64,000 nucleotides of DNA, from the IMG/VR virus record IMGVR_UViG_3300027759_000077, positions 6,946 through 70,945 of that record. One strand, given 5' to 3'. The stretch's first letter is position 1. Each line of letters starts with the position of its first letter. The notes under the pieces were generated by a model that had not been told where the DNA came from, did no database searches, and saw only the letters and a program-made list of their open reading frames with translations. Source of the DNA: a virus. Position numbers and translations under genes: made by a program. This document shows, one piece after another, positions 42,301 through 64,000 of the stretch.

Positions 42301-45300
42301 TATAATTGGCTTCTACTTCTTTCTGCGCAGCAGCTTCATCTTCCACTCTTTTGTCATCTTTATTTACATCGTAGTCGTCAAAATCTAACTCAAAAGGGTT
42401 TTCTTCAAAATCATTTGTATTTAGATCCCACTCCGAACCCATCTCTAAACCTTCTTGCGGACCCTGGTCATTTTCGTCTTCTAACGCTTCCGAAAAATCG
42501 GGGTCTGATAATTCGGGAGTTGCAATTTCTTCTGGTGCATTTACAACAGGAGGTTTAGAAACCGAAGTGGAACTCGGCTTAGACGTAGTGGGAGTTGCTG
42601 AAGATGTAGAAAAAACGGGCGAGTCAAGATCAGAAGAATCATCTGCATTTATAGTTTCGTAATTGTCACTGTCAAGTTCATAATCGTCATTAGCTATATT
42701 TTCTGCTGCAACTTCTTCTGGCTCTTCAATAGCATTTTGCTCAATGTACTCATCGGGTATTTCCTCAGCATCATCACCGATTTTTGTGGGATTTTTAGTT
42801 GGGGCACTTCCCCCTGCAAGTTCTGCTTCTACTTCCTCTAACTTAATAGCATGGTTTTCATCGTCCCACGCTTGACTTCTATTGACTTGAGCTTGTGCCT
42901 CATCGGCAGCATAATCAAAAGCCTCATCGTCACCTAAAATACCACTACCTTTAACACTCGAATCGTGTCCATAGCGAGGGGTTGGTTTTGATCCTCCTTT
43001 TGGAGCAGGGTTTGCAGTCGGACTTGCCGGTGCTCCTGTCGATGCGGGATTAACCGGTGCTGGCTTTTTCTTTGGCGGGGGAGTAGAACCTTTGTTTGGT
43101 ACTCCTCTTTGTGGAACGGGTGTTTCTTCTTCGTCATCATCGCTGTCTACAGCAACTGCAAATTTTTCTAATGCTTTAGCTGTAGCAACTAAAGCATCTC
43201 GTAAAAGCTGAGCTTTGATTTCTAGGTCTTGTAATTCTTTATTCCACAACTCTAGTTCTTCGGGGTCTAAAGAATCACCAAAGATACCTATGTGATTTGT
43301 AATCGAATCAATGGCAGTATTAACAGAATCATCAGCTTTGGTTAATGCTTTTCCAAAAAGGATAAGATCCTCTTCATCTTTTACATTAACATTTTTTGAA
43401 AACCCTTCTGCGTCTTTAGCATCGTCATGGGCTTTTTCAACCTTCTTGGTTGTTACACCCTCAACATGTTTTTGGAAAAAGCCTTTTTCATCACCAGGTT
43501 CTTTAGCGTCTTCTTGAACAGGTTCTTTATAGGCTTGACCCGAAAGACGATTCCATGTTTCGGCAATCGCTTCGCCAAGAGTAAGGGGGATTTGCTCTTT
43601 AAACTTATCTGTTGCAGGGGCTGTAGGATTCTTAATCTCAAACTTGTCTTTATCTTCGGCACTAGCTTCTTTAGTTTTAGCAGCGTCTTTAGTAGTAGCA
43701 TCTTTAGTTACTTCTGGTTCTTTATCAGCGTCTGCTTTTGTAGCACTGGCACTAGCAGCAGCGGCGGCAGAAGCGGCTTTAGCTGCTCTACGAGTTTCAT
43801 TTAACTGAGCTATTATAAGATTCCCATTAGCACGGGCAAGCTTTAAGAACAAAGGGTTAGCCGTTGCTTTTCCATTTTTTAATATTTCACTTGCGTATTT
43901 TTTAATCCCATCAAGCAATGCAACCAACTCGTCATCTGTAGAAGATTCCAATAGCTTTGAATCTATTCTTTTCGTTGCAAAATCGGGTTCTGCTGTATTT
44001 ACCGGTGCGGTTACGGGAGTTGACCCCGCTGTGACTATTGGAGGTGTTCCTACTACGGGTTCCGTCGTAGCTCCCGCTGTTGGAACAGGTCCCGCTGTAG
44101 ACCCTGCTGCTGCTGGATTAACGGGCGATGACCCTGCTGTAGAAGCGGGGGTAGCTGGGGTAACGGGCTTACCAGTAGATGCTTCTATTGCAGCACTACA
44201 GCGTGGGCATTTTACCTTTTTCCCTGCTGCCGAAATAGGTAGTTTGTACGTCGCTCCACAAGCTCCACACGTAACCGAAATAGCTTGTGGGGAAGAACCG
44301 CTTCCTGTGCCAGACGCTGCGGGTGCTTCGGGTGGAACTATCGATGATGTGGAAGTTGGAAAACTAAAAGCTAAAGGAGAAACTGGTTTTGGCCCAGATG
44401 CAGCCGCTGGCTTAGCTGCGGGTGTTGTAGCTGCGGGTTTCTTTTTTGGTTTCGGTGTAGCTGTAGGGTTTACTACGGGGGTATTAATACTGTTGAGTGT
44501 TTTTTCTTTTCTTTGTATCAAACTGTTTAAATAAGTACTAGCCGTTTTAATACCAGGGCTAGTGTCACTACCGTCAATATTGGCTTGTAATTCTTTTTCT
44601 AAACCTAGCTTGCTAGTAGCCTCTTTGATCATGTCGTCTAAGGTAGTAAGAATCAACCCAGACACTTGTGTCGTGTCTTCTTTATTTCCGACCTTAATTT
44701 TTTTAATACTTAATAATTCATTAAAATCTTTTCTTAACCGGTTAAGTTTTTTATTCGCAAGCTCAATTTTTTCTTTTATCTTGTCTTGTTTTTTCGTACC
44801 ACCTACATCGTAGAATCCCGCTAATGCTGCTCCACTCGCACTAAGCGCAAAAATAGAAGCTATTAATTTGGCAAGAAACGGTATGGAAGAATTACCGCCT
44901 TCAGTAGGACCAGCCGAAGGTGGAACTACAGGAGGCACGGCTGATGGTGCTACTACAGGTATATCTGGAACTACTGGTGGTACTATTGGAACTACGGGTG
45001 GAACTACAGGAACTATGGGCGGTACTTCAGCGGGTATTTCCGGTGGAACTATTGGGACAACAGGCGGGACTATTTGAATTGGGGGAGGGACTACTTCAGG
45101 GGTCGGGACTATACCGTTAGCTGCATTAAATTGTTCAATATGATGTTGACGAAACTCTGGGCTTAACCGGGGGCTTCTCCAAGTTTCGGGGGCTATTGGC
45201 TCTGCGCCCTTTTGACCGTGTAGTCCTTTTTTATCTTTTGCTGCTTGATTTCTAGCAGCGGCAAAGGCAGCTTCATCTTGAGGCTCTACCATGTACGGCA

Positions 45301-48300
45301 TGCCGTGACCTTCAGCAACCATCTGCTGACTTATCGACTGACCCGAATCAGCGTCAATTAAATCGCCAACTCTACGATTATGGGAAACCCCTTTAAGCTT
45401 TAACTTTAATTTTTTGTTGGTAAGTAATTTAGCAAGCGCCGCTTTTGCTGCTTTAGCTCCGGGCTGTTCTTGCCACTTGTCGCCCTTAGACTCAGGGGCA
45501 TCGTAGCCGTACATACGAAGACTAAGTTGTTGGGTAGAACCGTCGGCAAATTTAATCGTTAACTTTACGGTATCGCCGTCAGTAACACTGTCGACAAGGG
45601 CAAAAGGTAAGTCGGCAAGAGCTACGTTTTTATTTACATTTGGCGGGGGTGTAGTTGGGGTGTTACCAAAAACAACAGAACCAGATTGGTTTGCAGCCGC
45701 TCCACCACCCAAACCTCCTGCGGGAGCCTGTGTATCTGTCAGGGGCATTGAAGGTGCATTGAAGGCTGCAAGGGCGGCTGCTTGTTGCTGCTGGTTTCTT
45801 ACTGCTTGGATTTGTGCAGAATGTTTTGCAGCCGCTGCTTTCTTGGCTGCTTCGACTTGAGCGGGAGTTGAAATAGGCTTTGATTGTGGTTCTACTCTCG
45901 GAGGTAATCCAGCGACTTCTCTCTCTTCTTCCTGTTTCTCTATTACATCTCTAACACGGTCTTTTTCTACTTGAGCTTCTACCCTTGAGTCTTGAATGTG
46001 ACTCTCAAGAGGTTTACTTTCAGCACCCCCAGCCATGCCTACCATTAAACTGCCTAACACGGCAGCAGAAATGACGGGGACTTTGAGGCTTTTAAATGCT
46101 CTGGTTATAAAAGCTTGAAGAGGCTTGGTAACATTAATAGTGGATAAAGCAAATTGAACGTTTTTATCTTTAGGGGCTTTAGCTTTAATAAGGTCCGGTA
46201 TATTGGCTCCGGAAAACATCTTAATGACTGCCGCCATAATCAATTCTTGCGGGTCGGATAAATAACCCTTTTTAACTTTTTTACCATTAGAATCTGTAGT
46301 CGTATCCGAAAACGCATTATCATCAACGCCTTCACCAGACGTAACAATTGCTTGTAATAGTTCTTTTTGACCGCCTTCAAGACTCACAGGAGAGCCTGTT
46401 TTATTCAGTAGTCCGTGAAGTACTTCCTCTAACAGGGAAGCTCGGACTTGTGCTAGTTGTGCTTCATTGCCTTTTTCAAAAGCACTAGGAGGAACGGCAA
46501 GCTCTAAACCCTGCGAAAATTGATCGCTACCTTTTTCTTTTATACGGTGGACTGCACCCGAATAAGAAGCACCTTTATTTTTTCCTGTCCCCTCTATTGA
46601 CTCACCAGCATGAATAGAAATAACTTTAAAAAGTTTTGGAATACTAATTCCTAATTGTTTTCCTAAGCTATCAATTAAACTTGAAACATTGTCTTCAAAA
46701 TTCTCCTCCTGCCCCTCTTCAATAGCATCTTTATTACGTGCCTCTATACTGTTTGGATAATAATCTTTTACATCTTCGGGTTTAAATTTAGCAAACGATC
46801 CAACTAAAGGAGCTAAAATACTTTCTAACACACTCATAGCAGAAACAAAAATATCATCTCCCGAAACACGTTCTTTAAAGTTTTGTGTTGATTGCGATTT
46901 AATACCACCAATATTTTCCCTAATACCCTTCATAAACTCAGCAAGAGCACCAACATTAGAATCTATTTTTGCATTGTCTTCCGCTTTAGTTTTAGGCCCT
47001 CTAGTATCTAATGACTCGGGAAGAGCTTGCATCTGTTCTAAAATTTTAAGAAAGACCAGCCCTTCTGCTGCTACGTCACCGCTAGCATCATGAGCTACGG
47101 ACTCAACACCAAAATGTTCTGCAAGAACCTCAATAGTAAAGTCGGTCTTGCCTTCATAGTCGTTTCGTTTATCTTTCGCCGCATTAGCTCTAGCAACATT
47201 GGCATCTTCTGGAAACTCAGCATCATCCAATCGTTTTGCGTGAACTTCGTTTAAAGCGTCTTGTATTTCGCTGTGAGGGTCTTTTCCCAGAAGGACATTA
47301 GCTTTCTTTTGAAAAGTAATTAACTGTTTTAATAAAGAAGCTAAATCTACTGTTTTAGTAACACTAGAATCATTTCGTTCTTGTTCGGTACTAGGAAGTA
47401 TTCTCTTAAGCTGATTTTTTAAAGGATCAGTTTCATCTTCATGGCCTGCATTTTTACCCAGTTTTTGATCAAATGAGCTTTTAGCCACCCCAACCATTCC
47501 ACCCTCTTTACCTTCAAATTCATCAAGAAAACTACTTAAGATAGTAGCAGCTTCATCTTTACTAACCTTAGGGGCAGCGTTATACGCATTACGAAGATTA
47601 TCAAACTTATCATTTTCGGCAAGAGAGTGAGTATCTGGCTTATCCACAAAAATATTTAGACTTTTAACAACGTTACCCGTAGCTTTATCAATGACACTAG
47701 CTGCAACTTGTATGATTTCAGCGGATCTAAAATACTCATCTGTGCCCACCTTAGTACCACTTTTAGATGCAGTTTCGGTATCAACCACTATGATATATTT
47801 CTCAGAAATATCAGATTGTTTGACAGCCTCAGTAAATTCTTGCTTATCTTTCTTTGATCCCTTTTTTTTCTTACCTACCTTATTATCTTCTGGGGCTAAA
47901 GGATTTTTGGGGTCAGGATTGATAATGGCATCTACGTCTTTTTTACCGGATTTTCTTTTAGACTTTATTGAAGACCAAAGCCCATCCATTCGTTCTTCAC
48001 CCAGCATCGTAACGGAATATTTCTTGTCATAAAAAGTTTGTAAGTCTTCAATAAACTTTACGTAATAAGATTTTTCTTCTTCAATTCGATCTTTATCATC
48101 AGACTTTTTATAATTAGGATCCGCATCTTTAATTTTGTTTTCTTCTTTGGTTTTCTTTTTTTGCTCGATACGCTCCAGTTGCTCAGGGGTCTTAGCTTTG
48201 TTTCTAATACTTTCCATTGCAGTTAAGTGTGCGGATAAAACAGATTCTTTTAAACCTAAGTAAGACATGTACTCTTGTAAAGGCTGCGAGTAAGAAGCAG

Positions 48301-50323
48301 ATACACCAAGGGTATCTCCTAAAGCCTCTCGTTCTTTTTCTGCCATCCGTTCTCTTGGTTTCCAATCACTATCATCGTTATCCTTCTTGATACCAGCACC
48401 GGTATGTTTTACATCTTCTGCAAAACCACCTTTTTTAATACCTTGCATACGTCTTAAATGGGCGCTTAATTCTTCTTCTTTAGCGAATAAAAAATCAACG
48501 TAGGGGGCAATGCGATCTTCCCCAAATTCGTCAATCATCGTGTGCGTATCACCAGCATCTTTAGCAGCGTTTTTTCGGTCTTGGTACGGTTTTGCAAGAG
48601 GAGCTTGCTTTGCTCTACGCTCGTCTCGTTCAGTCTTTGTTTGTAATTCTCTGGCTTTTTTTTGTAGGTCGTAAAATGTTTTTGCCTTGTTTACTTTTAG
48701 CTGCAAAAAAGCAAGGTACGGAGCAATCTTTTCGAGATCATCGTTTTCTTGTTTTGTATTGCCAGTACCTAAATCAATAACCAGGCTTTCTTTTTTCTTT
48801 CGTGCTGTTTCACCAGCATAAAATTCTTCCGAGTGTTGCTTCTTTTTTTGAAGCCATGCAGTGTACAAGGCTAAAGAAGCCGCTTGGTCTGAAGCAGCGG
48901 TTTTAGAAGCGTCGCTAGTAGGGTCTAGTAAACTAGCGGCTTTGGCAGCTTTGGCATCGGCATAATACTTTTGGGTGTCGGCAGCTTTTTTATTGAGGTA
49001 TTCTAAATGGGCTTTTTCCCCCTCAGCTATGCGGGCTTTTTCAGAAGTGTTTTCGGGAGTACCGGGGGTTGCCTTTTTCAACTTTACGCTTGCGTGATAC
49101 TCTTTTGTTAATTGGGATTTGTCCGTAAGATATTTTTCATGTGCAACTTTGTCTTCAGCACGACGTGCTTCCTCTTCCGCAAATTCGGCAGTCCCAACGG
49201 TTTTTTTAGCGTTTTTTATTTTTTCATAATAGTTTTTAGATATTTCTGCCTTATTAGCAAGGTATTCTAATTGAGATTTTTCTTCGTCTTTTAAACGATC
49301 TTTTTCACTATCGTTTTCGGGAGTGCCGGGAGTACTCTTTTTTAACTTTATGTTTTCATGATATTCTTTTGTTAATTTAGATTTTTGGGCAAGGTATTCT
49401 AAATGGGCTTTATTATCTTCATTACGATGCTTTTGTTCTTCAGCGTTTTCTACTGTTCCAATTGTGTTTTTAGCGGTCTTTATTTTTTCGTAATAGTCTT
49501 TAGTCATTGCCGCTTTTTTAACAAGGTAAGCTAAATGATCTTTTTCTTCGTCTTTTAAACGAGATTGTTCCGCTGTGTTTTCTGTCGTTCCAATTGTATT
49601 TTTAGCGGTCTTTATTTTTTCGTAATAGGCTTTGGTCATCTCAGCTTTTTTAACAAGGTAAGCTAAATGATCCTTCTCTTCATCTTTTAAGCGAGCTTGT
49701 TCCGCTGTGTTCTCAGGTGTGCCGGGGGTAGCTTTCTTTGCCTTGACCGCATTGTGATAGTCTTGTGTTAGTTTTGTTTTGTCAGCAAGATATTTTTCAT
49801 GTGAGGCTTTGTCTTCAGCACGACGTTTTTCTTCTTCTGCAAACTCGGCAGTACCCGCAGTTGTTTTTGCGGTTTTTATTTTTTCGTAATAGTTCTTCGT
49901 CATCTCCGCTTTGTCACGTAAAAACTGTTCGTGATCTTTAAGGCGCTGAGCATCGTCTTTCGTGGAATCTGACGTTCCTGTTTCTTTTGCGATTTGTTGC
50001 TTGATACGGATTTTACCAAGTTCACGGAAAGCGAATTGGTTAAAGTGATCGTGATCTGATTGACGATCCATGCGGTGAGGAGATGAAGATCCGCTAGGTT
50101 TACTAAAGTGTGACCTAGCGGAATGCATTATAAATGCGAGGTGGGAAAACTCGATGCCAATGGTTTTGGCAGATTCTTGAATAGCATCTAGCTGAACACT
50201 AAAGCGGGAGAGAGAAGCGGACATCTGAGAAAAGTTCTCAAATATCTTTCGGACAGCTTCCTGTCCTGTATAAGGAACTTGGGAAAGTTTGGGGTTCTTG
50301 TGTCCGTCACCTTGACTTGCCAT
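39362..50323 (-). CDS. Giant multidomain tape measure protein (3653 aa)
   Basis: Follows the frameshifted tail chaperone. Long Gly/Ala/hydrophobic C-terminal tract and GSDTVPAM..GERVI motif; embedded DEDDh, SNase and Zn-ribbon domains. Confidence 0.8.
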   Translation of the reverse strand: MASQGDGHKNPKLSQVPYTGQEAVRKIFENFSQMSASLSRFSVQLDAIQESAKTIGIEFSHLAFIMHSARSHFSKPSGSSSPHRMDRQSDHDHFNQFAFRELGKIRIKQQIAKETGTSDSTKDDAQRLKDHEQFLRDKAEMTKNYYEKIKTAKTTAGTAEFAEEEKRRAEDKASHEKYLADKTKLTQDYHNAVKAKKATPGTPENTAEQARLKDEEKDHLAYLVKKAEMTKAYYEKIKTAKNTIGTTENTAEQSRLKDEEKDHLAYLVKKAAMTKDYYEKIKTAKNTIGTVENAEEQKHRNEDNKAHLEYLAQKSKLTKEYHENIKLKKSTPGTPENDSEKDRLKDEEKSQLEYLANKAEISKNYYEKIKNAKKTVGTAEFAEEEARRAEDKVAHEKYLTDKSQLTKEYHASVKLKKATPGTPENTSEKARIAEGEKAHLEYLNKKAADTQKYYADAKAAKAASLLDPTSDASKTAASDQAASLALYTAWLQKKKQHSEEFYAGETARKKKESLVIDLGTGNTKQENDDLEKIAPYLAFLQLKVNKAKTFYDLQKKARELQTKTERDERRAKQAPLAKPYQDRKNAAKDAGDTHTMIDEFGEDRIAPYVDFLFAKEEELSAHLRRMQGIKKGGFAEDVKHTGAGIKKDNDDSDWKPRERMAEKEREALGDTLGVSASYSQPLQEYMSYLGLKESVLSAHLTAMESIRNKAKTPEQLERIEQKKKTKEENKIKDADPNYKKSDDKDRIEEEKSYYVKFIEDLQTFYDKKYSVTMLGEERMDGLWSSIKSKRKSGKKDVDAIINPDPKNPLAPEDNKVGKKKKGSKKDKQEFTEAVKQSDISEKYIIVVDTETASKSGTKVGTDEYFRSAEIIQVAASVIDKATGNVVKSLNIFVDKPDTHSLAENDKFDNLRNAYNAAPKVSKDEAATILSSFLDEFEGKEGGMVGVAKSSFDQKLGKNAGHEDETDPLKNQLKRILPSTEQERNDSSVTKTVDLASLLKQLITFQKKANVLLGKDPHSEIQDALNEVHAKRLDDAEFPEDANVARANAAKDKRNDYEGKTDFTIEVLAEHFGVESVAHDASGDVAAEGLVFLKILEQMQALPESLDTRGPKTKAEDNAKIDSNVGALAEFMKGIRENIGGIKSQSTQNFKERVSGDDIFVSAMSVLESILAPLVGSFAKFKPEDVKDYYPNSIEARNKDAIEEGQEENFEDNVSSLIDSLGKQLGISIPKLFKVISIHAGESIEGTGKNKGASYSGAVHRIKEKGSDQFSQGLELAVPPSAFEKGNEAQLAQVRASLLEEVLHGLLNKTGSPVSLEGGQKELLQAIVTSGEGVDDNAFSDTTTDSNGKKVKKGYLSDPQELIMAAVIKMFSGANIPDLIKAKAPKDKNVQFALSTINVTKPLQAFITRAFKSLKVPVISAAVLGSLMVGMAGGAESKPLESHIQDSRVEAQVEKDRVRDVIEKQEEEREVAGLPPRVEPQSKPISTPAQVEAAKKAAAAKHSAQIQAVRNQQQQAAALAAFNAPSMPLTDTQAPAGGLGGGAAANQSGSVVFGNTPTTPPPNVNKNVALADLPFALVDSVTDGDTVKLTIKFADGSTQQLSLRMYGYDAPESKGDKWQEQPGAKAAKAALAKLLTNKKLKLKLKGVSHNRRVGDLIDADSGQSISQQMVAEGHGMPYMVEPQDEAAFAAARNQAAKDKKGLHGQKGAEPIAPETWRSPRLSPEFRQHHIEQFNAANGIVPTPEVVPPPIQIVPPVVPIVPPEIPAEVPPIVPVVPPVVPIVPPVVPDIPVVAPSAVPPVVPPSAGPTEGGNSSIPFLAKLIASIFALSASGAALAGFYDVGGTKKQDKIKEKIELANKKLNRLRKDFNELLSIKKIKVGNKEDTTQVSGLILTTLDDMIKEATSKLGLEKELQANIDGSDTSPGIKTASTYLNSLIQRKEKTLNSINTPVVNPTATPKPKKKPAATTPAAKPAAASGPKPVSPLAFSFPTSTSSIVPPEAPAASGTGSGSSPQAISVTCGACGATYKLPISAAGKKVKCPRCSAAIEASTGKPVTPATPASTAGSSPVNPAAAGSTAGPVPTAGATTEPVVGTPPIVTAGSTPVTAPVNTAEPDFATKRIDSKLLESSTDDELVALLDGIKKYASEILKNGKATANPLFLKLARANGNLIIAQLNETRRAAKAASAAAAASASATKADADKEPEVTKDATTKDAAKTKEASAEDKDKFEIKNPTAPATDKFKEQIPLTLGEAIAETWNRLSGQAYKEPVQEDAKEPGDEKGFFQKHVEGVTTKKVEKAHDDAKDAEGFSKNVNVKDEEDLILFGKALTKADDSVNTAIDSITNHIGIFGDSLDPEELELWNKELQDLEIKAQLLRDALVATAKALEKFAVAVDSDDDEEETPVPQRGVPNKGSTPPPKKKPAPVNPASTGAPASPTANPAPKGGSKPTPRYGHDSSVKGSGILGDDEAFDYAADEAQAQVNRSQAWDDENHAIKLEEVEAELAGGSAPTKNPTKIGDDAEEIPDEYIEQNAIEEPEEVAAENIANDDYELDSDNYETINADDSSDLDSPVFSTSSATPTTSKPSSTSVSKPPVVNAPEEIATPELSDPDFSEALEDENDQGPQEGLEMGSEWDLNTNDFEENPFELDFDDYDVNKDDKRVEDEAAAQKEVEANYTPNQKKFWEDIAKEKEEEEERAGLSSGLSTGDRTKEWLRNKLINQLLGERIRDGLEGEDAEDRKDEIRERLSKQYDVLDDNYDLASSPPLELDKDLDKPKDSLDIYKSMGGTIGYASDGTSVEKPSIFGGIFNSIFGKAKPKKKWKPPTNYHPTKNNWDTDTNFENKYRSGGGDIEKKGFFGNIFDNIFGEAKPKKKWKPKPNKEMVKNNWNTDDTFENSYRALGGDVSNKKDNSKSLSDLIFKPRGSDTVPAMTPEGQPYMLEKGERVIKRSESEKNKDLLDNINDGKIKKPPVYAASGTTAGGSKGGSSKGGSSGSSKGGSSKGGSGGGTPPPATRPTSMGSSSGDPLAPLGAWVKDFIANSRVGVIGGSFMALGKAVQGAMYSLGNFVKGASPDTFSTLQGSIALLTGSIGIGLIPVFLRASSIIQGWAKDIQNGTGVMGGLVTGVTKFIDSIDQGTLEFLVGVGLFVAGLTMFAPVLGIVIPIITGLAAGFSLLSMPLVAFGVLVVAILDKAGLLGPALNMLVSGVSFVVSALATGVGIIVSVVGTLLGAVTSFVGFFVGIGASIGGYILGLFSPLAPFFNMLGQVLFGLVGVIGAAIGIWAMFGGTVMAVIGFFSGLVGSVVALFGAVAGFFTTVGSLSGLFTLLYTWCAGLVTSFAAAVASTWTYVANMAKAAIAVIAANPMLAAFALALGAGIVAIGLWEKAAIKAAEAKSQGDKNSRETSTEKKYAEGIADTGGKTKEGRVNALETEAAKQRKVALKSKNDANDLEYGKNGVKMDKKAAKSMREGTVQEEGRKLNALENQLLVEQDPNQAKVRNQAVTDRDNGVTAEQASARDNPKGIDTGLGFKLPPMPDFKDLKLPKFDFKLPKFELPGQKKKTPEEEAEAAKKKKADDIASAKQGVAASMGSMKSQSSFSSVEEAYKKIQVSALGDDPMTVELKKIQEQSLARMLIELQKLNGTNKVIAEKKPEGVGA
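48950..49950 (-). repeat. 132-bp (44-aa) repeat, about 8 copies, in the TMP N-terminus
   Basis: KDEEKDHLAYLVKKAxMTKxYYEKIKTAKNTIGTxEN units; AACAAGGTAAGCTAAATGATC recurs with a 132-bp period. Confidence 0.8.
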
Positions 50324-56324: not shown

Positions 56325-56543
56325 TTAAAGGGGGGTTAAAAAATTAAATTCACCACAGGTAGTGGTGGATAAAGTTGAAGGAAAAATTCCTATCCTGCCA
56401 TCTGGAAGCAAATGACTTCCAGGCACAGAATAAATAAGAACGGGGGGAAACCTACGGCATTCGCCAACTTGCTTATCTTGGGATTCCCAAAAAGAACAAG
56501 CGGAACAATCACCAGAAGGTTTTTTGGTTTTTAAACTAGCCAT
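56325..56543 (-). CDS. Small 4-Cys protein (HiPIP-like spacing)
   Basis: CSACSFW..GECRRFPP..CGEF. Confidence 0.6.
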   Translation of the reverse strand: MASLKTKKPSGDCSACSFWESQDKQVGECRRFPPVLIYSVPGSHLLPDGRIGIFPSTLSTTTCGEFNFLTPL

Positions 56544-58348
56544 TACCTTCTACCTGTTGCTTCAAATAAACGCTTGTTAAGAGCGTCTTGATTTGATTTC
56601 AAAGTAAGAAGAGCACTGAGGATGGTTTTCATTTCATCTTCTTCTGGCTTTTCATCTTCTTTTGGAGTCAAAGCGTTCATGCAATGATCCATCTTGTCGT
56701 GAAGACTGGTAAGAAGATTGGTGTGAGCGGTAGAACAATCATGCATGGAATGCATTAATTCAGACATAGATTTCAGTACATCTTTTGTATCAACTTCAGT
56801 ATCTTCGTCAGGGTCTTTGTCGTCATCACCGTCTTCATCTTCATCACTGCCTTCATCTTCTTTGTCATCATCAGAATCTTCAGACTTGGCTTTTTTGCCG
56901 TCTTGTTCACTATCGTCGTCTTCATCTTCATTGGCAGCTTTGTCTTTAACATCAACTTCGTCATCATCATCTTCGGGTTCGCCCTTTTTAGCAGACTCAT
57001 CGTCATCGTCTACTTCTTTTTTCTTGTCTTCATCTTCGTCTTCTTTTTTCTTAGACTTACCTTGGGTAGGCGAGGCTACAAGGGCTTCTAAGTCTTTTTT
57101 AAATTTTAGTTGTTCTGTATTCACGGTTACAAGCTCCTTAAAATCAATGTCCGGAAATAAAGTTTTTAATTCTTCTATAGAATATAATAAACGATATTCG
57201 GGAGCGGGTATATAGTATTCTTTATAATGTTTTGCTAAATGATTGTAAACCTCAATCCGCTGTAATTCTGGAATCTCAATACCGCCTTGAGTCCCTAAGA
57301 GTGCAGCCATTGCGGTTCGGACACCTTCCCAAACGGTATCGAGGGTTTTATGATCGTGATGAGGAAGCTTAAACGAAGACTTGTCTTTGGAGTCTTTCCC
57401 ATTAAACCATGCGGTCATTTGTTTGTATTCCGATAACGAAGCGTTCTCTTTTTGAACAGGCCCATCCCATTCCACATTCGTGTCTTTGTGGTTAACTTCA
57501 ACCGCTTTAGTAGGGAGAGAAGAAGGCTCATTAAACGATACAACTGTTTTTGTTTTTTTGGGCATGTAATGAGATAAAGCCCTACGAACGGAAGGGGATA
57601 TTTTTTCTCCTTCGATATGTCCACGGGAGAGGTGGGCAGCTAAAGCGTCTTGGTTTGCAGGGATAGGGACTACAGACCATTCGATCATATCCCACTCAAG
57701 GAATCGGAGGCAAGGCATAGACCTAGTACTGTCCGAACGGAAGTCGATAATGTCTTCGCCAGTCTCTAAGTCGATAAGGTCTTCATCCTCTGATTCAATA
57801 AACGTTGCCCTAATAGGCAAAAAGCCAATAGAAGACGCTTGTAATTCTTTGCGGGCAATCAATCGGAAGATTAGTTCGGACTCACGGGTTTCTCCATGGA
57901 AATAAGCGGTGGAGTAAATCCGGTCATCATATATCTCTAAAGCAAGATTGCCGTCTGGATCCCTAGCGGAGGCGATCGGTAGGTCGTCCGTTTTATGGGC
58001 AAAAAATACACGGGGATTTCGGGTGTAGTTTTTAAGATGGGATACGCAACCTCTCGGCAATACGATATCACCATGACGATCTTTAGATGCCGTTGTGATT
58101 ACAAAACGTGCGGTCATTCGAGTTGTATCAACCTTAGGATCTTCTGCGTCATTAGCATCTAGGCCCAGTAAAGAAGAGCTAGACTCCCCTAGAGTATGAG
58201 CCATGTTTCGAATATATTCGGCAGGCATAGGAAATGCACCAAGCTTACGGGTTTCCTTAGCTTGGTAGTTTTTACGGTCCCTTATGAATGACCGAATTAC
58301 ATCGGGACTAGCTGTTTCTATCGAATTTGGAAGTTCAAATTTACCCAT
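56543..58348 (-). CDS. HK97-type prohead protease with extra domain and acidic scaffold-like tail
   Basis: DRHGDIVLP..NPRVFFAH, SSIGFLP, EWSVVPIPANQDA; then FKLPHH..YNHLAKHY domain; Asp/Glu-rich tail. Confidence 0.9.
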   Translation of the reverse strand: MGKFELPNSIETASPDVIRSFIRDRKNYQAKETRKLGAFPMPAEYIRNMAHTLGESSSSLLGLDANDAEDPKVDTTRMTARFVITTASKDRHGDIVLPRGCVSHLKNYTRNPRVFFAHKTDDLPIASARDPDGNLALEIYDDRIYSTAYFHGETRESELIFRLIARKELQASSIGFLPIRATFIESEDEDLIDLETGEDIIDFRSDSTRSMPCLRFLEWDMIEWSVVPIPANQDALAAHLSRGHIEGEKISPSVRRALSHYMPKKTKTVVSFNEPSSLPTKAVEVNHKDTNVEWDGPVQKENASLSEYKQMTAWFNGKDSKDKSSFKLPHHDHKTLDTVWEGVRTAMAALLGTQGGIEIPELQRIEVYNHLAKHYKEYYIPAPEYRLLYSIEELKTLFPDIDFKELVTVNTEQLKFKKDLEALVASPTQGKSKKKEDEDEDKKKEVDDDDESAKKGEPEDDDDEVDVKDKAANEDEDDDSEQDGKKAKSEDSDDDKEDEGSDEDEDGDDDKDPDEDTEVDTKDVLKSMSELMHSMHDCSTAHTNLLTSLHDKMDHCMNALTPKEDEKPEEDEMKTILSALLTLKSNQDALNKRLFEATGRR

Positions 58349-59775: not shown

Positions 59776-62460
59776 ATGAATTATGAAAACCAAATAGAGC
59801 AGTTAGTAAGAGCATTACATTCGGACAATTATAGCTCTTCTGAGGTCAAAAACAGGCTTAATCAAATAATAGCAATGCCCGATAAATATAACCAAAAAAC
59901 TTTTGAAGCTTGGAGAACAGCCAACGTTAGTAGACAAGGTGCGATCAAGAACCTACTAAACTCAGACAGTGATGGGAAAAGAGCCAAGCATTTAGAGCCT
60001 TGGCTAAAAGAGATAACGGGAGATAATCATGCCGGTGCTGCAAATATTGCTCGATTTACAGCAGATGTAAAATCGGTTTTTGCTTCAGCAGATGCAAAGA
60101 ATAAAACCTTTACCAGAAATCATAAAGCTGAAAATCCAGAAGGAAAATTAGACGGCCCAAAAAAACCGCAGTACGGAACAAGCATGGACCCTTCCCGTTT
60201 CGTTTCCGGACTAGTGTCTTTATTAGCAAGTGGGCCATCGGTGAGCACATTAAAAGCGTACATTTCTAAAAACATTAACCCAACTAATTCTGGTGGCATT
60301 ACTAAAGAGCTAAGGAGCAAAGGTCACGTAGAGTTATTTGATATGGTTGGAAACGGAACTAGAGCGGATACCAAAACTGCGGATAGTGTCTTTGAAGCGC
60401 AAATGAAAATCCACGCTAATGTTGTGAGAGATACAAACTTTAAATCCATGTTTAGATCCTCAGGAGAACTAGGGATAAAAAAGTTGTATGACCTTTTAAA
60501 AAGTAATAACTCAATAGCAATGCAAAGAATAACAGGATACTCCGCTAGTGAGTTGGCAACCATACTAAAAGAAGATGGAATCAAACAATCTTTAGTAAGT
60601 TTATGGCTAGAAGAATTACAAGGGTCAGGGGATTTAAAAAGGGCTATTGAAGGAAGGAAAGAGGATATTAAAAAAGCTACAGCACAACTTATTGAAGATC
60701 AAAAAAAAGACCTCGACCCTCACAAAGTTAAAAATTTAAAAAATATATTTGTAGATTCAGTAATGATGAAAGTGCGAAACGATATTACTAAAACACAATC
60801 AGATGCTAGGAAAGGACTTTTTGGAGATAACGTACTTCCTGACGAGTTAGTTAAAGATATGCGAACATGGACTGTAAAACATTCAATGGCTGAAATTGGT
60901 TCTTTTAAAGATAGTTTAGACCTTGTCAACATTTCTAGTAAAGAGGGACTTTTATCCATCCCTGTATTTACTGGGATTCCGGGTATATACAGTGCAGGGA
61001 TTGGGGTAGAGCCCATCAAGAAACTTTTACAAGACCAAAAAACTCTTGAGTCAACACCGATTGATACAAAAAAAGAAGGTGCTTTAGACACTCGACTAAA
61101 GGATGAAAAGAGTTTAAGAGAAGCGGGAATGAAACATGCGGATGATAAATTAGCAAGTAATGAAAGTATTTACCCTGCTGCGTTTAAACAAGCTAGAAGT
61201 TTGATGCACTATCACGGGGGAAATTTGAAGGCTAATTTTCGCCGTTCTCGTTTACTACGTAATAGCGTAAGAAAAGAAGGAGATAAAAGAAAAGAAGAAA
61301 TAGAAGCGGCAGTAGATGGTTTGATAATTAAAGATAATAGCATATTACTTGGGAATTTATTCAAAGCCGCACTCAAAGATATTGATAAAAAAATTAATGG
61401 CAAAGATGATTTTTACAACGCACGTCATGTAAAAGCGTTGATATCTCTAGCAAGTTTGTCAGGTCGAGCAAGAACAAGCTGGCTATCAATTTGTAATACA
61501 GCTACAGAAATGGTGGCTAGTTTAGAAAGTACAGCAAGTGGAATGGGTAGCACTTTAGATAGGGTTGTCGCAAGAGTGGACATACAAGACATTGCTAGTG
61601 AGTCCACAAGAGAATCGGGGAAAGGAGATGAGCGTAGAGCTAAATGGTCAGACCCTGGTAGACATGATTGGGAAGCTTTAAGAAACTATCAAGCTAACTT
61701 AAACAAACATGGGCCTAGAGCAGATGTAATAAGTAAATACAGCGGTTCGCACTTTGATCACCAAGGAAGAATAAAAACGGATTTATATAGAGTGATTTTT
61801 AAAGAGTGGAAGAAACAGATGTATGCGAATGGACAAGCGAGTGAGATCGAAAGTGCGGGAGGGGTAAATAAAGCTTTTCAACGTTACATGGGAAGTGAAC
61901 ATGCAAGACAAGGTCTTCGAGGTTTAATGGCTGAAGAGCTTCGGGAGTCTATGAGTGAACAAGACTTCAAAATTTATGATAAACGTTTAAGAGAAGAATT
62001 TTATTTGGGTCGGTATGAAAGAGCGCAAAAGTTTTTTACCTTCACAGCGTATGAAACAGTGAAAGGGCCAAACGGAAGAAATGTTATTGTACCTTTACCC
62101 ATGAGAAGAGAATCCACTGAGGAAGGTTCAAGTTTAAATGGTGGAATATATGATGCAGATAAAGCAGATCGGGTGAAAAGTGAACATGAACAGCTTGCTT
62201 ATGTACACGGATTAGCAGATCCTAATTCTACGCTAGATGAAAAGTATAAAGGCTTTACTTTTGTCGGGATGATACACGCTGCAAAAAATGGTGAGGACTT
62301 AAACAGAATCGAACAGCACATCTATGACTACGTTCCAAAAGAGCATCTTGACCAGTTTCAAGAAAATAGCGGCGATACTTCTATTAGCAACCTTTTAAAA
62401 AACCGGAGAGATGAACTAACAGGGCTAGGTAATGCCGCCGGTGTAACTCCCAACTCTTAA
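59776..62460 (+). CDS. Large helical hypothetical protein (894 aa)
   Basis: Long ORF divergent from the portal gene; no recognisable motif. Confidence 0.7.
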   Translation: MNYENQIEQLVRALHSDNYSSSEVKNRLNQIIAMPDKYNQKTFEAWRTANVSRQGAIKNLLNSDSDGKRAKHLEPWLKEITGDNHAGAANIARFTADVKSVFASADAKNKTFTRNHKAENPEGKLDGPKKPQYGTSMDPSRFVSGLVSLLASGPSVSTLKAYISKNINPTNSGGITKELRSKGHVELFDMVGNGTRADTKTADSVFEAQMKIHANVVRDTNFKSMFRSSGELGIKKLYDLLKSNNSIAMQRITGYSASELATILKEDGIKQSLVSLWLEELQGSGDLKRAIEGRKEDIKKATAQLIEDQKKDLDPHKVKNLKNIFVDSVMMKVRNDITKTQSDARKGLFGDNVLPDELVKDMRTWTVKHSMAEIGSFKDSLDLVNISSKEGLLSIPVFTGIPGIYSAGIGVEPIKKLLQDQKTLESTPIDTKKEGALDTRLKDEKSLREAGMKHADDKLASNESIYPAAFKQARSLMHYHGGNLKANFRRSRLLRNSVRKEGDKRKEEIEAAVDGLIIKDNSILLGNLFKAALKDIDKKINGKDDFYNARHVKALISLASLSGRARTSWLSICNTATEMVASLESTASGMGSTLDRVVARVDIQDIASESTRESGKGDERRAKWSDPGRHDWEALRNYQANLNKHGPRADVISKYSGSHFDHQGRIKTDLYRVIFKEWKKQMYANGQASEIESAGGVNKAFQRYMGSEHARQGLRGLMAEELRESMSEQDFKIYDKRLREEFYLGRYERAQKFFTFTAYETVKGPNGRNVIVPLPMRRESTEEGSSLNGGIYDADKADRVKSEHEQLAYVHGLADPNSTLDEKYKGFTFVGMIHAAKNGEDLNRIEQHIYDYVPKEHLDQFQENSGDTSISNLLKNRRDELTGLGNAAGVTPNS

Positions 62461-62659: not shown

Positions 62660-63187
62660 ATGAGAAATGTAATCGCCTTGAATGTGTTGTTGGTGTTGGT
62701 AGTAAGTGCTCAAGCTAGTGGGGCTTATTGGTTAATTAGCAAGTCAGAACCAAAGGTAATAGCTGAAGTTAAGGTAGCTCATAAGTTTCCAGTTACTAAA
62801 GAAGGTTTAAAATTACCTAATGAATCATATACCGTGTGTCATGTGATCGGGGAAGCTGATCTAAAGGATGGAAACAATGTTCCGCTTTGGTCTTTGTTAG
62901 ATACAGATCAAGGTGTTGTATTCATTACTCATGGTGGTAAAGATGGAAAAATTATAGGTATTAAATATTTCGACGATGACATGCTTGTAGATGATGCAGT
63001 TCGGATATTGAATGATCGCTATGAGGTTAAGATAGATCGAGTTATTTGTTGCTACCCAAAACAAGTAGCTGAAACATCAAAGACTGGAGTAATGCTTTCG
63101 TGTGCTTTCCATGATGGCTGTGTGTACTGCGATGCTGCACGTGGGGATGGTGCAGTTGTAAGGGTGTGGGTATCTAGCCCTGACTAA
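62660..63187 (+). CDS. Secreted protein with possible His/Cys (caspase-like) dyad
   Basis: AGGAG RBS; signal peptide; VVFITHGG...RVICCYP. Confidence 0.6.
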   Translation: MRNVIALNVLLVLVVSAQASGAYWLISKSEPKVIAEVKVAHKFPVTKEGLKLPNESYTVCHVIGEADLKDGNNVPLWSLLDTDQGVVFITHGGKDGKIIGIKYFDDDMLVDDAVRILNDRYEVKIDRVICCYPKQVAETSKTGVMLSCAFHDGCVYCDAARGDGAVVRVWVSSPD

Positions 63188-63193
63188 ACAATT

Positions 63194-63265
63194 GCAGAGG
63201 ACTCCTCGACAGGGGAGTAATGCACTATGTGATCTGATCTAGGTCATGTAACGGTTCCAAGTCCG
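63194..63265 (+). ncRNA. Twister ribozyme (circularly permuted, P5-type-like)
   Basis: GCA-GA-GGA, P1 CUCCUC/GGGGAG, U^AA, P2 UGC/GCA, T2 AC/GU, 10-bp P3, A, P4 CGG/CCG with loop UUCCAAGU, T1 UCC/GGA. The conserved twister core positions are present and both pseudoknots pair. Confidence 0.85.
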
Positions 63266-63270
63266 GCATT

Positions 63271-63307
63271 CAGCTACTTACGCTTTGTAGGTAGCTGTGT
63301 TTGTTTA
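63271..63307 (+). terminator. 11-bp hairpin plus U-rich tract downstream of the ribozyme
   Basis: CAGCTACTTAC-GCTTT-GTAGGTAGCTG then TGTTTGTTT. Confidence 0.5.
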
Positions 63308-63326
63308 TAGATCAAGGAGTTTTATT

Positions 63327-63932
63327 ATGTCTATTGTATTTGTTTGCATGGTTTGTAATCACGAATCTTATCTTTGCAATTGCGGAGATAATTCAGAGTT
63401 TACAGAAGTTGAAGTGTTAGATGAGTGTGAAGGTTCTGTAAGCGGATGCTGTGAAGATGTGCTGTGTGCTGGTTGTGGTAAAGAAGAGTGCTTCTGTGCT
63501 TTTATAGACTTAGTCGAGAGTGACTGGGCCGAGAATGTTTCTGATTGCGATACTGTAGAGCTAGAAGATGAGGACTTTATCTATGCATATGATGCAGAAG
63601 ATGTAGTTGATGTTTGTGACTCATGCAATCAGCAGGGATGCAACGGGCCTAATGAACGAGGGTTCTGCTTAGAGAAGGCATCGGATGAAGAGTACCAGGA
63701 CATGCTTCAAAGGAAGTATTTTCAAGAAAAGGTTGAACCCATAGCTGTTGCAGTTGTACCTATGTGGGTCGAATCATTGATGGTAGTGATGATGATCTTA
63801 AGCTTCTTTGGTTTAGTGATCGACATCGCTACGGGGAAGAACAATAACCCTGTGCTAGTGACGGGGTTTTACTTGTTCTGTGCGTACTTGGTTGTTACGT
63901 ATGGTGCAGTGATCATCTGGTTCTTGTGCTAA
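63327..63932 (+). CDS. Acidic Cys-rich protein with two C-terminal TM helices
   Basis: Likely start MSIVFV (AGGAG RBS); repeated CxxC..C motifs; hydrophobic C-terminus. Confidence 0.65.
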   Translation: MSIVFVCMVCNHESYLCNCGDNSEFTEVEVLDECEGSVSGCCEDVLCAGCGKEECFCAFIDLVESDWAENVSDCDTVELEDEDFIYAYDAEDVVDVCDSCNQQGCNGPNERGFCLEKASDEEYQDMLQRKYFQEKVEPIAVAVVPMWVESLMVVMMILSFFGLVIDIATGKNNNPVLVTGFYLFCAYLVVTYGAVIIWFLC

Positions 63933-64000
63933 TCAATGGTAAGTTAGTTCGTTTGTTTTTTCTTAATAAGCCTTTGCGTGTTGCAGAGGCTTTGTTCTTT

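What the first reader, a model, noticed from the sequence alone, without database searches (positions are those of the whole stretch)
63185..63307. Twister self-cleaving ribozyme directly after a phage stop codon
Seen in sequence: after the TAA at 63185-63187, the DNA can be folded by hand into a permuted twister core. P2 is GCA(63194-96)/UGC(63221-23), followed by the conserved GA. T1 is GGA(63199-201)/UCC(63256-58), P1 is 63202-07/63212-17, and the cleavage motif is U63218^A63219A. T2 is AC(63224-25)/GU(63261-62), P3 is a 10-bp stem (63226-35/63241-50), and P4 is CGG/CCG around the loop UUCCAAGU. TAAACAA(63185-91) can pair with TTGTTTA(63301-07) to close the domain. Established: this matches the twister consensus as I recall it from env9/env22/Osa; T2 is covaried from the usual GC/GC to AC/GU. 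Caveat: the spacer between UAA and T2 is one nt shorter than in those examples. Inference: the phage cuts its own polycistronic mRNA between genes, leaving a 5'-OH downstream product that may be stabilised.
Basis: partly seen in the sequence, partly recalled or inferred. Interest (0 to 1): 0.85.

Follow-up and report, generated by a model that had tools for sequence, protein, structure and literature searches.

The report
Twister ribozyme between two phage genes
A real-looking member of the known twister family of self-cutting RNAs sits between two genes of a freshwater phage, where it most likely cuts the shared messenger RNA into separate pieces; this is a new example of a known kind, not a new kind.

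Summary
Window 63193-63266 (+) is a type-P5 twister ribozyme with an optional P3 stem. Rfam's Twister-P5 model hits it over its full length but below threshold (30.2 vs 37.6 bits). Its closest relatives also score 27-32 bits, while 35 of 41 other phage twister hits pass. A model built from 41 P3-bearing phage twisters, window excluded, scores it 62.3 bits, E 1.4e-14, and finds nothing else in the window. On 73 aligned copies, 97.2% of pair cells are paired and 19 of 23 pairs show compensatory changes. This includes pseudoknots T1 and T2, which the model never saw. The window forms all 23 pairs.

Across 123 phage sites, twisters lie in sense orientation just after a stop codon and about 29 nt before the next start. 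That fits intercistronic mRNA cutting at U63218/A63219. Cleavage itself and its effect on the mRNA are untested.

A conserved terminator-like hairpin follows the ribozyme. The whole cassette is repeated and mosaic among relatives.

Verdict: new member of a known kind, moderate interest.

The parts
62660..63187 (+). Upstream gene, 175 aa, hydrophobic N-terminus, stop TAA 63185-87. Six nt separate the stop from G63194.
   Evidence: ORF list. No Pfam or PHROG hit. Homologues at 27-44% identity sit directly before twisters in L136, L049/L029, L078/L102, L122/L126/L129 and L135.
63193..63266 (+). Type-P5 twister ribozyme with P3 stem (whole element).
   Evidence: Rfam RF02684, model positions 1-58 of 58, 30.2 bits. 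Custom model R1: 63191-63270, 62.3 bits, E 1.4e-14. Motif pattern found once, 0 of 100 shuffles.
63194..63196 (+). P2 5' strand GCA, paired with UGC 63221-63223. The conserved GA follows at 63197-98.
   Evidence: On A3 the P2 helix is 100% paired.
63199..63201 (+). Pseudoknot T1 5' strand GGA, paired with UCC 63256-63258 in loop L4.
   Evidence: Sequence. A/U versus G/C at the third pair covary in 128 of 128 distinct phage cores. T1 is 99.5% paired with all 3 pairs doubly changed on A3, and it was not part of the model.
63202..63217 (+). P1 hairpin: CUCCUC 63202-07, loop GACA 63208-11, GGGGAG 63212-17.
   Evidence: P1 has at least 4 bp in 104 of 129 cores against 2.7% of shuffles. All 6 P1 pairs show compensatory change.
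63218..63219 (+). Predicted scissile bond between U63218 and the conserved A63219.
   Evidence: Position in the Rfam alignment (GUAAUGC). The family's cleavage site is described as a U-A dinucleotide adjoining P1 (PMC5408937, section 8). Not tested experimentally.
63224..63225 (+). Pseudoknot T2 5' strand AC, paired with GU 63261-63262 in loop L4.
   Evidence: AC goes with U and GC with C, with 11 G.U and 0 A.C among 128 cores. T2 is 96.6% paired on A3.
63226..63250 (+). Optional stem P3: 63226-35 with 63241-50, 10 bp, apical loop GAUCU.
   Evidence: 41 of 42 inserts of 17 nt or more at this place fold into a hairpin of at least 5 bp. All 6 modelled P3 pairs show compensatory change.
63252..63265 (+). 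P4 (CGG 63252-54 with CCG 63263-65) enclosing loop L4, UUCCAAGU.
   Evidence: P4 is 99.5% paired on A3. This P4 is short: only 1 pair beyond GG/CC, as in 10 of 129 cores.
63271..63307 (+). Terminator-like hairpin 63271-63297 (12 bp) with U-rich tail 63298-63307. It belongs to the conserved cassette of this subgroup.
   Evidence: Pattern scan. A hairpin is present in 17 of 17 related cassettes. Compensatory pairs appear in RNAalifold on 7 sequences. Terminator function is not shown.
63308..63319 (+). UAGAUCA 63308-14, complementary to the P3 apical region UGAUCUA 63235-41, overlapping the Shine-Dalgarno AAGGAG 63314-19.
   Evidence: Seven contiguous Watson-Crick pairs, shuffle p 0.01. At least 5 pairs in 13 of 17 related cassettes. 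The meaning is unexplained.
63327..63932 (+). Downstream gene, 201 aa, Cys-rich N-terminal part and hydrophobic C-terminus.
   Evidence: No Pfam or PHROG hit. Homologues follow twisters in L130 (89%), L135, L078/L106 and L007/L133.
63185..63191 (+).
   Evidence: Seven Watson-Crick pairs in the window. Not conserved: only 1 of 17 cassettes beats shuffles, and RNAalifold does not predict it.

Best explanation
Window 63193-63266 (+) encodes a genuine type-P5 twister self-cleaving ribozyme carrying the optional P3 stem. It lies in the 139-nt spacer between two same-strand genes of a freshwater phage.

When the spacer is transcribed as part of a polycistronic mRNA, the RNA folds into P2, P1, P3 and P4, locked by pseudoknots T1 and T2. 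It then cuts itself between U63218 and A63219.
- The upstream mRNA would end in the P1 hairpin plus one U, with a 2',3'-cyclic phosphate.
- The downstream mRNA would begin with a 5'-OH, followed by P3, P4, a further stable hairpin, the Shine-Dalgarno sequence and the 201-aa gene.

The likely purpose is to uncouple the fates (stability, translation) of neighbouring cistrons.

Shown: sequence and structure membership, conservation at a syntenic site, and sense, intercistronic placement. Inferred: that it cleaves, and what cleavage does to the two mRNAs.
For: Family match
- Full-length match to Rfam Twister-P5 with the conserved nucleotides in place. It is the top hit of the whole window.
- Model R1, built from 41 P3-type phage twisters with the window excluded, gives 62.3 bits, E 1.4e-14, and is the only hit in 64 kb.

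Structure
- On 73 aligned copies, 97.2% of cells are paired against 69.4% in shuffles and 28-45% when partners are slid.
- 19 of 23 pairs carry compensatory changes; the covariation score is 0.692 against 0.162, exceeded by 0 of 500 shuffles.
- T1 (99.5% paired) and T2 (96.6% paired) covary although they were not in the model. The window row forms all 23 pairs.
- T1 covaries in 128 of 128 cores, and T2 shows no A.C mismatch.
- The native secondary structure is the MFE, z = -5.26.

Conservation
- Homologues of the flanking proteins (27-44% identity) flank twisters in other contigs.
- The ribozyme is 91% identical to L136 where the upstream gene DNA is 65% identical, and 82.5% against 60% for L078.

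Placement, from 123 phage sites
- An ORF of at least 40 codons ends within 30 nt upstream in 107 (antisense control 30).
- An ORF with a ribosome-binding site starts within 150 nt downstream in 103 (control 12).
- Both hold in 92 (control 2).
- The stop lies -1 to +2 nt from the ribozyme in 71 of 107.

Literature: processing of polycistronic transcripts by bacterial twister and hammerhead ribozymes, and their link to phage genes, has been proposed but not proven (PMC6765202 section 13; PMC10085705 introduction passages).
Against: - Rfam's curated threshold is not met: 30.2 against 37.6 bits, and no gathering-level hit.
- P2 has 3 bp and P4 has 3 bp. That is the short end of the family: only 10 of 129 cores have a single pair beyond GG/CC.
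- No cleavage assay exists and no RNA run holds the region, so activity is unproven.
- The R1 seeds were collected with a motif pattern taken from the window's own conserved blocks. The conserved-nucleotide part of the R1 score is therefore not independent; only the stems and pseudoknots are.
- A3 was fitted to the nested helices, which inflates their pair counts. This does not apply to T1 and T2.
- A terminator-like hairpin lies between the ribozyme and the next gene. If it terminates efficiently, the element sits in a 3' UTR rather than between co-transcribed cistrons.
- High ribozyme identity between contigs may partly reflect recombination between cassettes (mosaic modules) rather than purifying selection alone.
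Confidence: 0.8

Rival explanations
1. 3'-UTR device. The 175-aa gene's transcript normally ends at the terminator-like hairpin (63271-63297 plus U-rich tail). The twister, placed between the stop codon and that terminator, cuts the terminator off. This tunes (probably lowers) the stability of the upstream mRNA and releases a small RNA of about 85 nt with a 5'-OH (P3-P4-hairpin).
For: - The hairpin plus U-rich tail is flagged as terminator-like.
- It is present in 17 of 17 cassettes of the subgroup, with compensatory changes.
- Engineered twisters in bacterial 3' UTRs are reported to change expression (PMC6765202 section 13, citing Felletti 2017, which I could not read).
Against: - The terminator scan found 4 sites where shuffles give 3.4, so the call is weak.
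- The U-tract is interrupted (UGUUUGUUUA).
- The Shine-Dalgarno sequence and ATG of the next gene follow within 30 nt, with no promoter-like site between.
- In most phage twisters the next start is about 29 nt away, leaving no room for a terminator.
- This reading is not exclusive of the best explanation.
Confidence: 0.15
2. The element matters mainly at the DNA level. The conserved cassette (twister + hairpin + ribosome-binding site) is a repeated homology block at which small genes are gained, lost and shuffled by recombination. Ribozyme activity is secondary or dispensable.
For: - Cassettes are mosaic. The window's P1 recurs in L136 with a different P3, and its hairpin and tail recur in L130 with different P1 and P3.
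- L127 carries 4 cassettes in 1.5 kb.
- In freshwater DNA contigs, depth rises about 5-fold over 63220-63281 and the flanks differ before 63194 and after 63329.
- One contig has 205 extra letters between two copies of 63247-63329.
Against: - A pure recombination block would not need compensatory changes that keep P1, P3, P4, T1 and T2 paired.
- It would not need strict sense orientation next to stop codons either.
- Shuffling is compatible with, and may be a by-product of, a functional RNA cassette.
Confidence: 0.1
3. An inactive relic, or a structured RNA that keeps the twister fold without cleaving. It might act as a 5'-UTR stabiliser or a protein-binding site.
For: - The Rfam score is below threshold.
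- P2 and P4 are short.
- There is no experimental evidence for cleavage.
Against: - All invariant columns of the 41-sequence alignment are kept, including the UAA at the cleavage site.
- The pseudoknots are maintained by covariation.
- The same subgroup architecture is kept in at least 17 distinct cassettes. Decay would not preserve that.
Confidence: 0.06
4. A chance resemblance in an AT-rich intergenic spacer.
For: Only the sub-threshold Rfam score, E 0.025 over the whole window.
Against: - 0 of 100 shuffles contain the motif pattern.
- R1 gives E 1.4e-14.
- The position is conserved in synteny.
- All 23 structure pairs are formed.
Confidence: 0.01

Closest known systems
Type-P5 twister ribozyme (Rfam RF02684; class defined by Roth et al. 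2014, which I could not read; described in PMC5408937 section 8 and PMC10085705 introduction)
   Same: - Same strand order: P2-5', GAG, T1, closed P1 hairpin, U^AA, P2-3', T2, [P3], P4/L4.
- Same conserved nucleotides and the same two pseudoknots.
- The full model length aligns.
- Phage-borne copies are plentiful, and 35 of 41 tested hits pass Rfam's threshold.
   Different: - It scores 30.2 bits, below the 37.6 threshold.
- T1 has A-U instead of G-C at one pair, and T2 is AC/GU instead of GC/GC.
- P2 has 3 rather than 4 bp, and P4 is short.
- The 25-nt P3 is treated by the model as an insertion.
- Its nearest relatives (L007, L029, two in L078) are likewise sub-threshold at 27-32 bits.
Twisters with a P3 stem used for crystal structures (env22; named in PMC5408937; their sequences were not compared here)
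   Same: P3 is a recognised optional stem of the class. Here, 41 of 42 inserts at this position form a hairpin.
Bacterial and phage hammerhead, twister-sister, pistol and hatchet ribozymes near phage genes (PMC10085705 introduction; PMC8782182 section 7; PMC6154101 section 2.3)
   Same: Small self-cleaving RNAs clustered near phage genes and near each other, with unknown biological role. Arrays are seen here too: for example 4 twisters in L075, 6 in L067, and an HDV-like hit beside a twister in L057.
   Different: These are different folds. The published strongest gene association is with Mu-like phage genes (PMC10085705), which I did not test for this phage.
Repeated promoter/stem-loop cassettes that flank shuffled small genes in T4-type phages (recalled from memory, no call)
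   Same: A short repeated regulatory cassette separates small accessory genes, and its copies appear to mark gene indels and mosaic joints.
   Different: Here the cassette holds a ribozyme, a hairpin and a ribosome-binding site, not a promoter. The analogy is functional only and unproven.

Membership tests
Twister ribozyme (type P5) | [quoted passage not shown] | tested here: met
   P1 is 6 bp, P2 3 bp and P4 3 bp in the window. The same helices are 95-100% paired with compensatory changes on 73 sequences.
Twister ribozyme (type P5) | Double pseudoknot: T1 (3 Watson-Crick pairs, L1 with L4) and T2 (2 pairs, L2 with L4) | tested here: met
   GGA/UCC and AC/GU in the window. T1 covaries in 128 of 128 cores and T2 shows no A.C. 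T1 is 99.5% and T2 96.6% paired on A3, and neither was modelled.
Twister ribozyme (type P5) | About ten or more strongly conserved nucleotides in L1 and L4 | tested here: met
   The Rfam alignment shows identity at GCAGAG, GUAAUGC, GGU, CCAAG and CC. All 25 invariant columns of the 41-sequence alignment A1 are matched.
Twister ribozyme (type P5) | Scissile U-A dinucleotide adjoining P1, with a conserved A on the 3' side | tested here: met
   U63218-A63219 directly follows the P1 3' strand. The definition comes from PMC5408937 section 8.
Twister ribozyme (type P5) | Type-P5 permutation: P1 closed by a loop, chain ends beyond P4 | tested here: met
   P1 is capped by GACA. Among Rfam models only Twister-P5 is listed as hitting here; one lower-scoring overlapping match to a family of the same clan was left out by the tool.
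Twister ribozyme (type P5) | Score at or above Rfam's gathering threshold (37.6 bits) | tested here: not met
   30.2 bits. The whole subgroup scores 27-32 bits, within a continuous range up to 60 bits. This is a limit of the curated model (P3 counted as an insertion, pseudoknots not scored), not a missing feature.
Twister ribozyme (type P5) | Site-specific self-cleavage giving 2',3'-cyclic phosphate and 5'-OH ends | not testable with these tools
   No RNA holder was listed. This needs in vitro transcription or end-specific RNA-seq.
Intrinsic (Rho-independent) terminator, for hairpin 63271-63307 | G+C-rich stem directly followed by a U-tract, and transcripts ending there | tested here: inconclusive
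   The pattern scan is positive (12 bp, 5 G-C, tail TGTTTGTTTA), but the region has 4 such sites against 3.4 in shuffles. The hairpin is conserved in 17 of 17 cassettes. Transcript ends could not be tested.

The most novel reading that the evidence does not exclude
The unit is not just a ribozyme. It is a composite, recombining expression cassette: stop codon, twister, covarying terminator-like hairpin, a pre-SD box complementary to the P3 loop, then SD and ATG. In a lineage of freshwater phages this cassette punctuates arrays of small, mostly Cys-rich genes. The P3-loop/pre-SD pairing (UGAUCUA 63235-41 with UAGAUCA 63308-14) would couple self-cleavage or ribozyme folding to translation initiation of the next cistron. 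The repeated cassette would also serve as the joint at which genes are swapped.
Probability: 0.15. Interest if true: 0.65.

Novelty: new member of a known kind. Interest (0 to 1): 0.4.

Why it matters
Twister ribozymes are well understood chemically, but their biological role in bacteria and phages is still described as elusive (PMC6765202 section 13; PMC13725137 introduction).

This locus does not change the picture of what a twister is. It does three useful things.
- It shows that a whole subgroup of freshwater-phage twisters falls just under Rfam's threshold, so routine annotation misses it.
- It adds quantitative context. Phage type-P5 twisters sit in sense orientation directly after stop codons and a short distance before the next start, often in arrays. 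That is what an intercistronic mRNA-processing role predicts.
- It offers a compact, testable cassette (ribozyme, hairpin, SD) for asking how self-cleavage affects the stability and translation of neighbouring cistrons.

Tried and rejected
- Rfam at gathering threshold over the window: no hit.
- DNA similarity to deposited phages (blastn, 62660-63932): no match.
- Protein-pattern scans of IMG/VR with the 175-aa and 201-aa neighbours: no confirmed relative. Relatives were later found by local tblastn in loci fetched through the ribozyme motif.
- PHROGs and Pfam on the three plus-strand genes: nothing. The only line was a ThrE match at E 0.069, below its cut-off.
- RNA evidence: no RNA holder listed among 24 runs. 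The four DNA runs laid are contigs and say nothing about transcript ends.
- Other twisters in the record: a search of all 70,945 bases with RF02684 gave only this one. R1 also gave only this one in the window.
It is absent from the RNAalifold consensus. I do not count it as part of the element.
- My first script for hairpin boundaries mis-parsed most cassettes and was replaced.
- In one search, 19 of 129 cores scored 0 P1 pairs from the ends. By eye these look like a register offset in my parsing (an extra base after T1), not a missing P1, but I did not re-count them. One P3-type row (L057) is a mis-parse of the lazy pattern.
- MAFFT alignment A2 misaligns P3 in L047 and L101, so I did not use it for P3 counts.
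- Papers not held: Roth 2014, Felletti 2017, Weinberg 2015. What I say about them comes from citing papers or recall. Supplements were not consulted. Supplementary consensus files of PMC10085705 and the original twister papers could bear on how common the AC/GU and P3 variants are.
- No claim that stop-codon adjacency or cassette arrays are unpublished: my searches found no paper describing them, but the primary twister papers could not be read.
Full report
**1. What is there**

The window is the last 64 kb of a 70,945-base IMG/VR virus record estimated 69% complete. PHROG hits to portal, major head protein and integrase show it is a tailed phage.

After a long minus-strand structural block, three plus-strand genes run to the contig end:
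- an 894-aa gene at 59776-62460;
- a 175-aa gene at 62660-63187;
- a 201-aa gene at 63327-63932.

None of the three matches Pfam or PHROGs. The finding lies in the 139-nt spacer between the last two.

**2. The observation**

That covers P2, the GA, T1, P1 with its GACA loop, the U63218/A63219 site, T2, a 10-bp P3, P4 around UUCCAAGU, and the TAAACAA/TTGTTTA complement. The unconstrained minimum-free-energy fold of 63185-63307 reproduces P2, P1, P3 and P4, with z = -5.26 against 200 shuffles.

**3. Family assignment**

Rfam at its gathering thresholds reports nothing in the window. At E-value thresholds, the Twister-P5 model (RF02684) aligns over its whole length, positions 1-58, at 63193-63266. 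The score is 30.2 bits against a cut-off of 37.6, with E 1.2e-4 on 301 bases and 0.025 on the whole window, where it is the top hit. The model treats P3 as an insertion and cannot score pseudoknots.

A pattern made of the three conserved blocks gave these results:
- one match in the window and 0 in 100 shuffles;
- 129 distinct cores, the window's included.

In 20 of those loci Rfam finds 41 Twister-P5 hits. Of these, 35 pass the threshold, with scores running continuously from 60 down to 27 bits. The four lowest (L007, L029, two in L078, 27-32 bits) are the window's nearest relatives. So the sub-threshold score is a property of a subgroup, not a sign of a false hit.

A covariance model built from 41 P3-bearing phage copies, with the window left out, scores the window 62.3 bits, E 1.4e-14, and finds nothing else in 64 kb. 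One caveat applies. The seeds were gathered with blocks shared with the window, so only the helices add independent weight.

**4. Structure test**

Among 128 distinct cores other than the window's:
- The third T1 pair is G-C in 53 and A-U in 75, with no mismatch.
- AC as the T2 strand always goes with U: 54 of 54 directly after UGC, and 5 of 5 after one spacer base.
- GC goes with C, or in 11 cases with U as a wobble.
- Two rows do not parse.

Stem checks:
- P1 forms at least 4 consecutive pairs in 104 of 129 cores, against 2.7% of shuffles.
- P4 extends beyond GG/CC in 126 of 129.
- 41 of 42 long inserts fold as a P3 hairpin.

I then aligned 73 model hits from 44 sources and added T1 and T2 to the stored structure:
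- 97.2% of 1661 cells are standard pairs, against 69.4% in shuffles and 28-45% with partners slid.
- 19 of 23 pairs have compensatory changes.
- The covariation score is 0.692 against 0.162, and 0 of 500 shuffles reach it.
- T1 is 99.5% and T2 96.6% paired. They were not in the model, so the alignment could not have been fitted to them.

The window row forms all 23 pairs.

The defining features I tested come from a review of the class: three essential stems, two pseudoknots, about ten conserved nucleotides, and a U-A scissile dinucleotide next to P1 (PMC5408937, sections 8 and 11, passages).

This is the majority state: in 80 of 128 cores the T2 strand follows UGC directly.

**5. Conservation at the same genomic place**

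Local tblastn shows homologues of the 175-aa protein (27-44% identity) ending right before twisters in L136, L049/L029, L078/L102, L122/L126/L129 and L135. Homologues of the 201-aa protein follow twisters in L130 (89%), L135, L078/L106 and L007/L133. Homologues of the 894-aa protein lie upstream in L078/L102 and L007/L133.

The ribozyme is better conserved than the neighbouring coding DNA: 91% against 65% for L136, and 82.5% against 60% for L078.

**6. Where phage twisters sit**

I analysed 123 sites with enough flank, each with the antisense strand as control.

| Feature | Sense strand | Antisense control |
|---|---|---|
| Open frame of at least 40 codons ending within 30 nt upstream | 107 | 30 |
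| ORF of at least 40 aa with a ribosome-binding site starting within 150 nt downstream | 103 | 12 |
| Both | 92 | 2 |

The stop codon ends -1 to +2 nt from the first G of the ribozyme in 71 of 107 sites. The median distance from the ribozyme to the next start is 29 nt. In the window the distances are 6 nt and 62 nt.

This is the placement expected of an element that acts on a polycistronic mRNA. The idea is already in print as a suggestion, together with the link to phage genes, and the role is described as unresolved (PMC6765202 section 13, read in full; PMC10085705 introduction passages; PMC13725137 introduction passages).

**7. Likely mechanism**

Cutting at U63218/A63219 would leave two products.
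- The upstream mRNA ends in the P1 hairpin plus one nucleotide, with a cyclic phosphate.
- The downstream mRNA starts with a 5'-OH ahead of P3, P4 and a further hairpin.

From general knowledge of bacterial mRNA decay, a 3' hairpin hinders 3' exonucleases, and a 5'-OH is a poor entry point for 5'-end-dependent RNases. I therefore infer that both products are relatively protected and that cleavage uncouples the two cistrons. This step is inference. No RNA holder was listed for the region.

**8. The cassette around it**

In the window's subgroup the ribozyme is followed by a conserved cassette:
- GGCAU;
- a 9-13-bp hairpin, present in 17 of 17 cassettes, with compensatory changes in the 7-sequence RNAalifold consensus;
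- a U-rich tail;
- a UAGAUC-type box, the Shine-Dalgarno sequence and ATG.

The hairpin matches a terminator pattern, but such matches are no more frequent here than in shuffles.

The apical part of P3 is complementary to the box just before the SD. In the window this is 7 Watson-Crick pairs with p 0.01. At least 5 pairs occur in 13 of 17 cassettes. L047 has a different pair of sequences that is also complementary. There are four exceptions. The cassettes are related, so this is a lead, not a result.

**9. Repetition and mosaicism**

- Different cassettes combine the same P1, P3, hairpin and tail variants in different ways.
- L127 has four cassettes in 1.5 kb, separated by small ORFs.
- By my reading of the ORF starts printed, 12 of the 17 downstream ORFs begin with a Cys-rich M-x-N...C-x-x-C type motif. 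No script counted this.
- In freshwater DNA contigs, depth rises from 15 to about 75 over 63220-63281.
- Flanks diverge before 63194 and after 63329.
- One 3.5-kb contig has 205 extra letters between two copies of 63247-63329.

This suggests that genes are gained or lost at cassette boundaries.

**10. Verdict**

This is a genuine, previously unannotated member of the type-P5 twister class, in a phage intercistronic spacer. It is a new member of a known kind. The chemistry and fold are textbook, and the biological role (mRNA processing) is likely but unproven. The cassette architecture and its mosaic repetition are the most interesting loose ends.

Noticed in passing
window 63235-63241 and 63308-63314: The P3 apical region UGAUCUA is the exact reverse complement of UAGAUCA just before, and overlapping, the Shine-Dalgarno sequence. 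Similar complementarity (at least 5 Watson-Crick pairs) occurs in 13 of 17 related cassettes, and L047 has a different sequence pair that is also complementary. The four exceptions are L101, L126, L127 (2312) and L136 (1661).
   Followed up: partly
window 63271-63307; L007, L029, L047, L078, L101, L122, L126, L127, L130, L135, L136: A terminator-like hairpin with a U-rich tail follows the ribozyme in every cassette of this subgroup (17 of 17), with compensatory stem changes. Whether it terminates, attenuates or stabilises is unknown.
   Followed up: partly
L127:863-2379, L136:942-1728, L078:1750-2097; window 63194-63329 in runs X1-X4: The twister cassettes are repeated and mosaic. L127 has four in 1.5 kb. 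Metagenome depth is about 5-fold higher over the cassette than over the flanks. One contig carries a 205-letter insert between two copies of 63247-63329.
   Followed up: partly
window 63327-63932; L130:~170-1072; ORFs after cassettes in L127, L136, L078, L029, L122, L126, L135: By my reading of the ORF starts (no script counted them), 12 of 17 genes downstream of the cassettes begin with a Cys-rich N-terminus (M-x-N...C-x-x-C). L130 encodes a longer version of the window's 201-aa protein, with extra Cys-rich repeats. There are no Pfam or PHROG matches for the window's copy.
   Followed up: no
123 twister sites in L002-L119: Stop codons of upstream ORFs end -1 to +2 nt from the ribozyme's first G in 71 of 107 cases (TAA 61, TAG 33, TGA 13). 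A terminating ribosome would therefore cover P2 and T1, so translation and ribozyme folding might be coupled.
   Followed up: partly
L057:2506-2576 (+): A near-threshold hit to the HDV-like ribozyme of F. prausnitzii (RF02682, 42.4 bits against 44) lies about 340 nt upstream of a twister at 2915-2973. This is another case of different ribozyme classes clustering.
   Followed up: no
window 63968-63992: A second terminator-like hairpin after the 201-aa gene contains the heptamer GCAGAGG, and the contig ends 8 bases later. I cannot tell whether another cassette follows or whether the repeat broke the assembly.
   Followed up: no
window 39362-50323 (-): A single ORF of 3653 aa lies in the structural block of the phage. 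It was not examined.
   Followed up: no
window 56821-56875 (-): A weak Rfam hit to the archaeal C/D-box sR2 family (25.5 bits against 42, E 0.16), inside the 601-aa minus-strand ORF 56543-58348. It is most likely chance.
   Followed up: no
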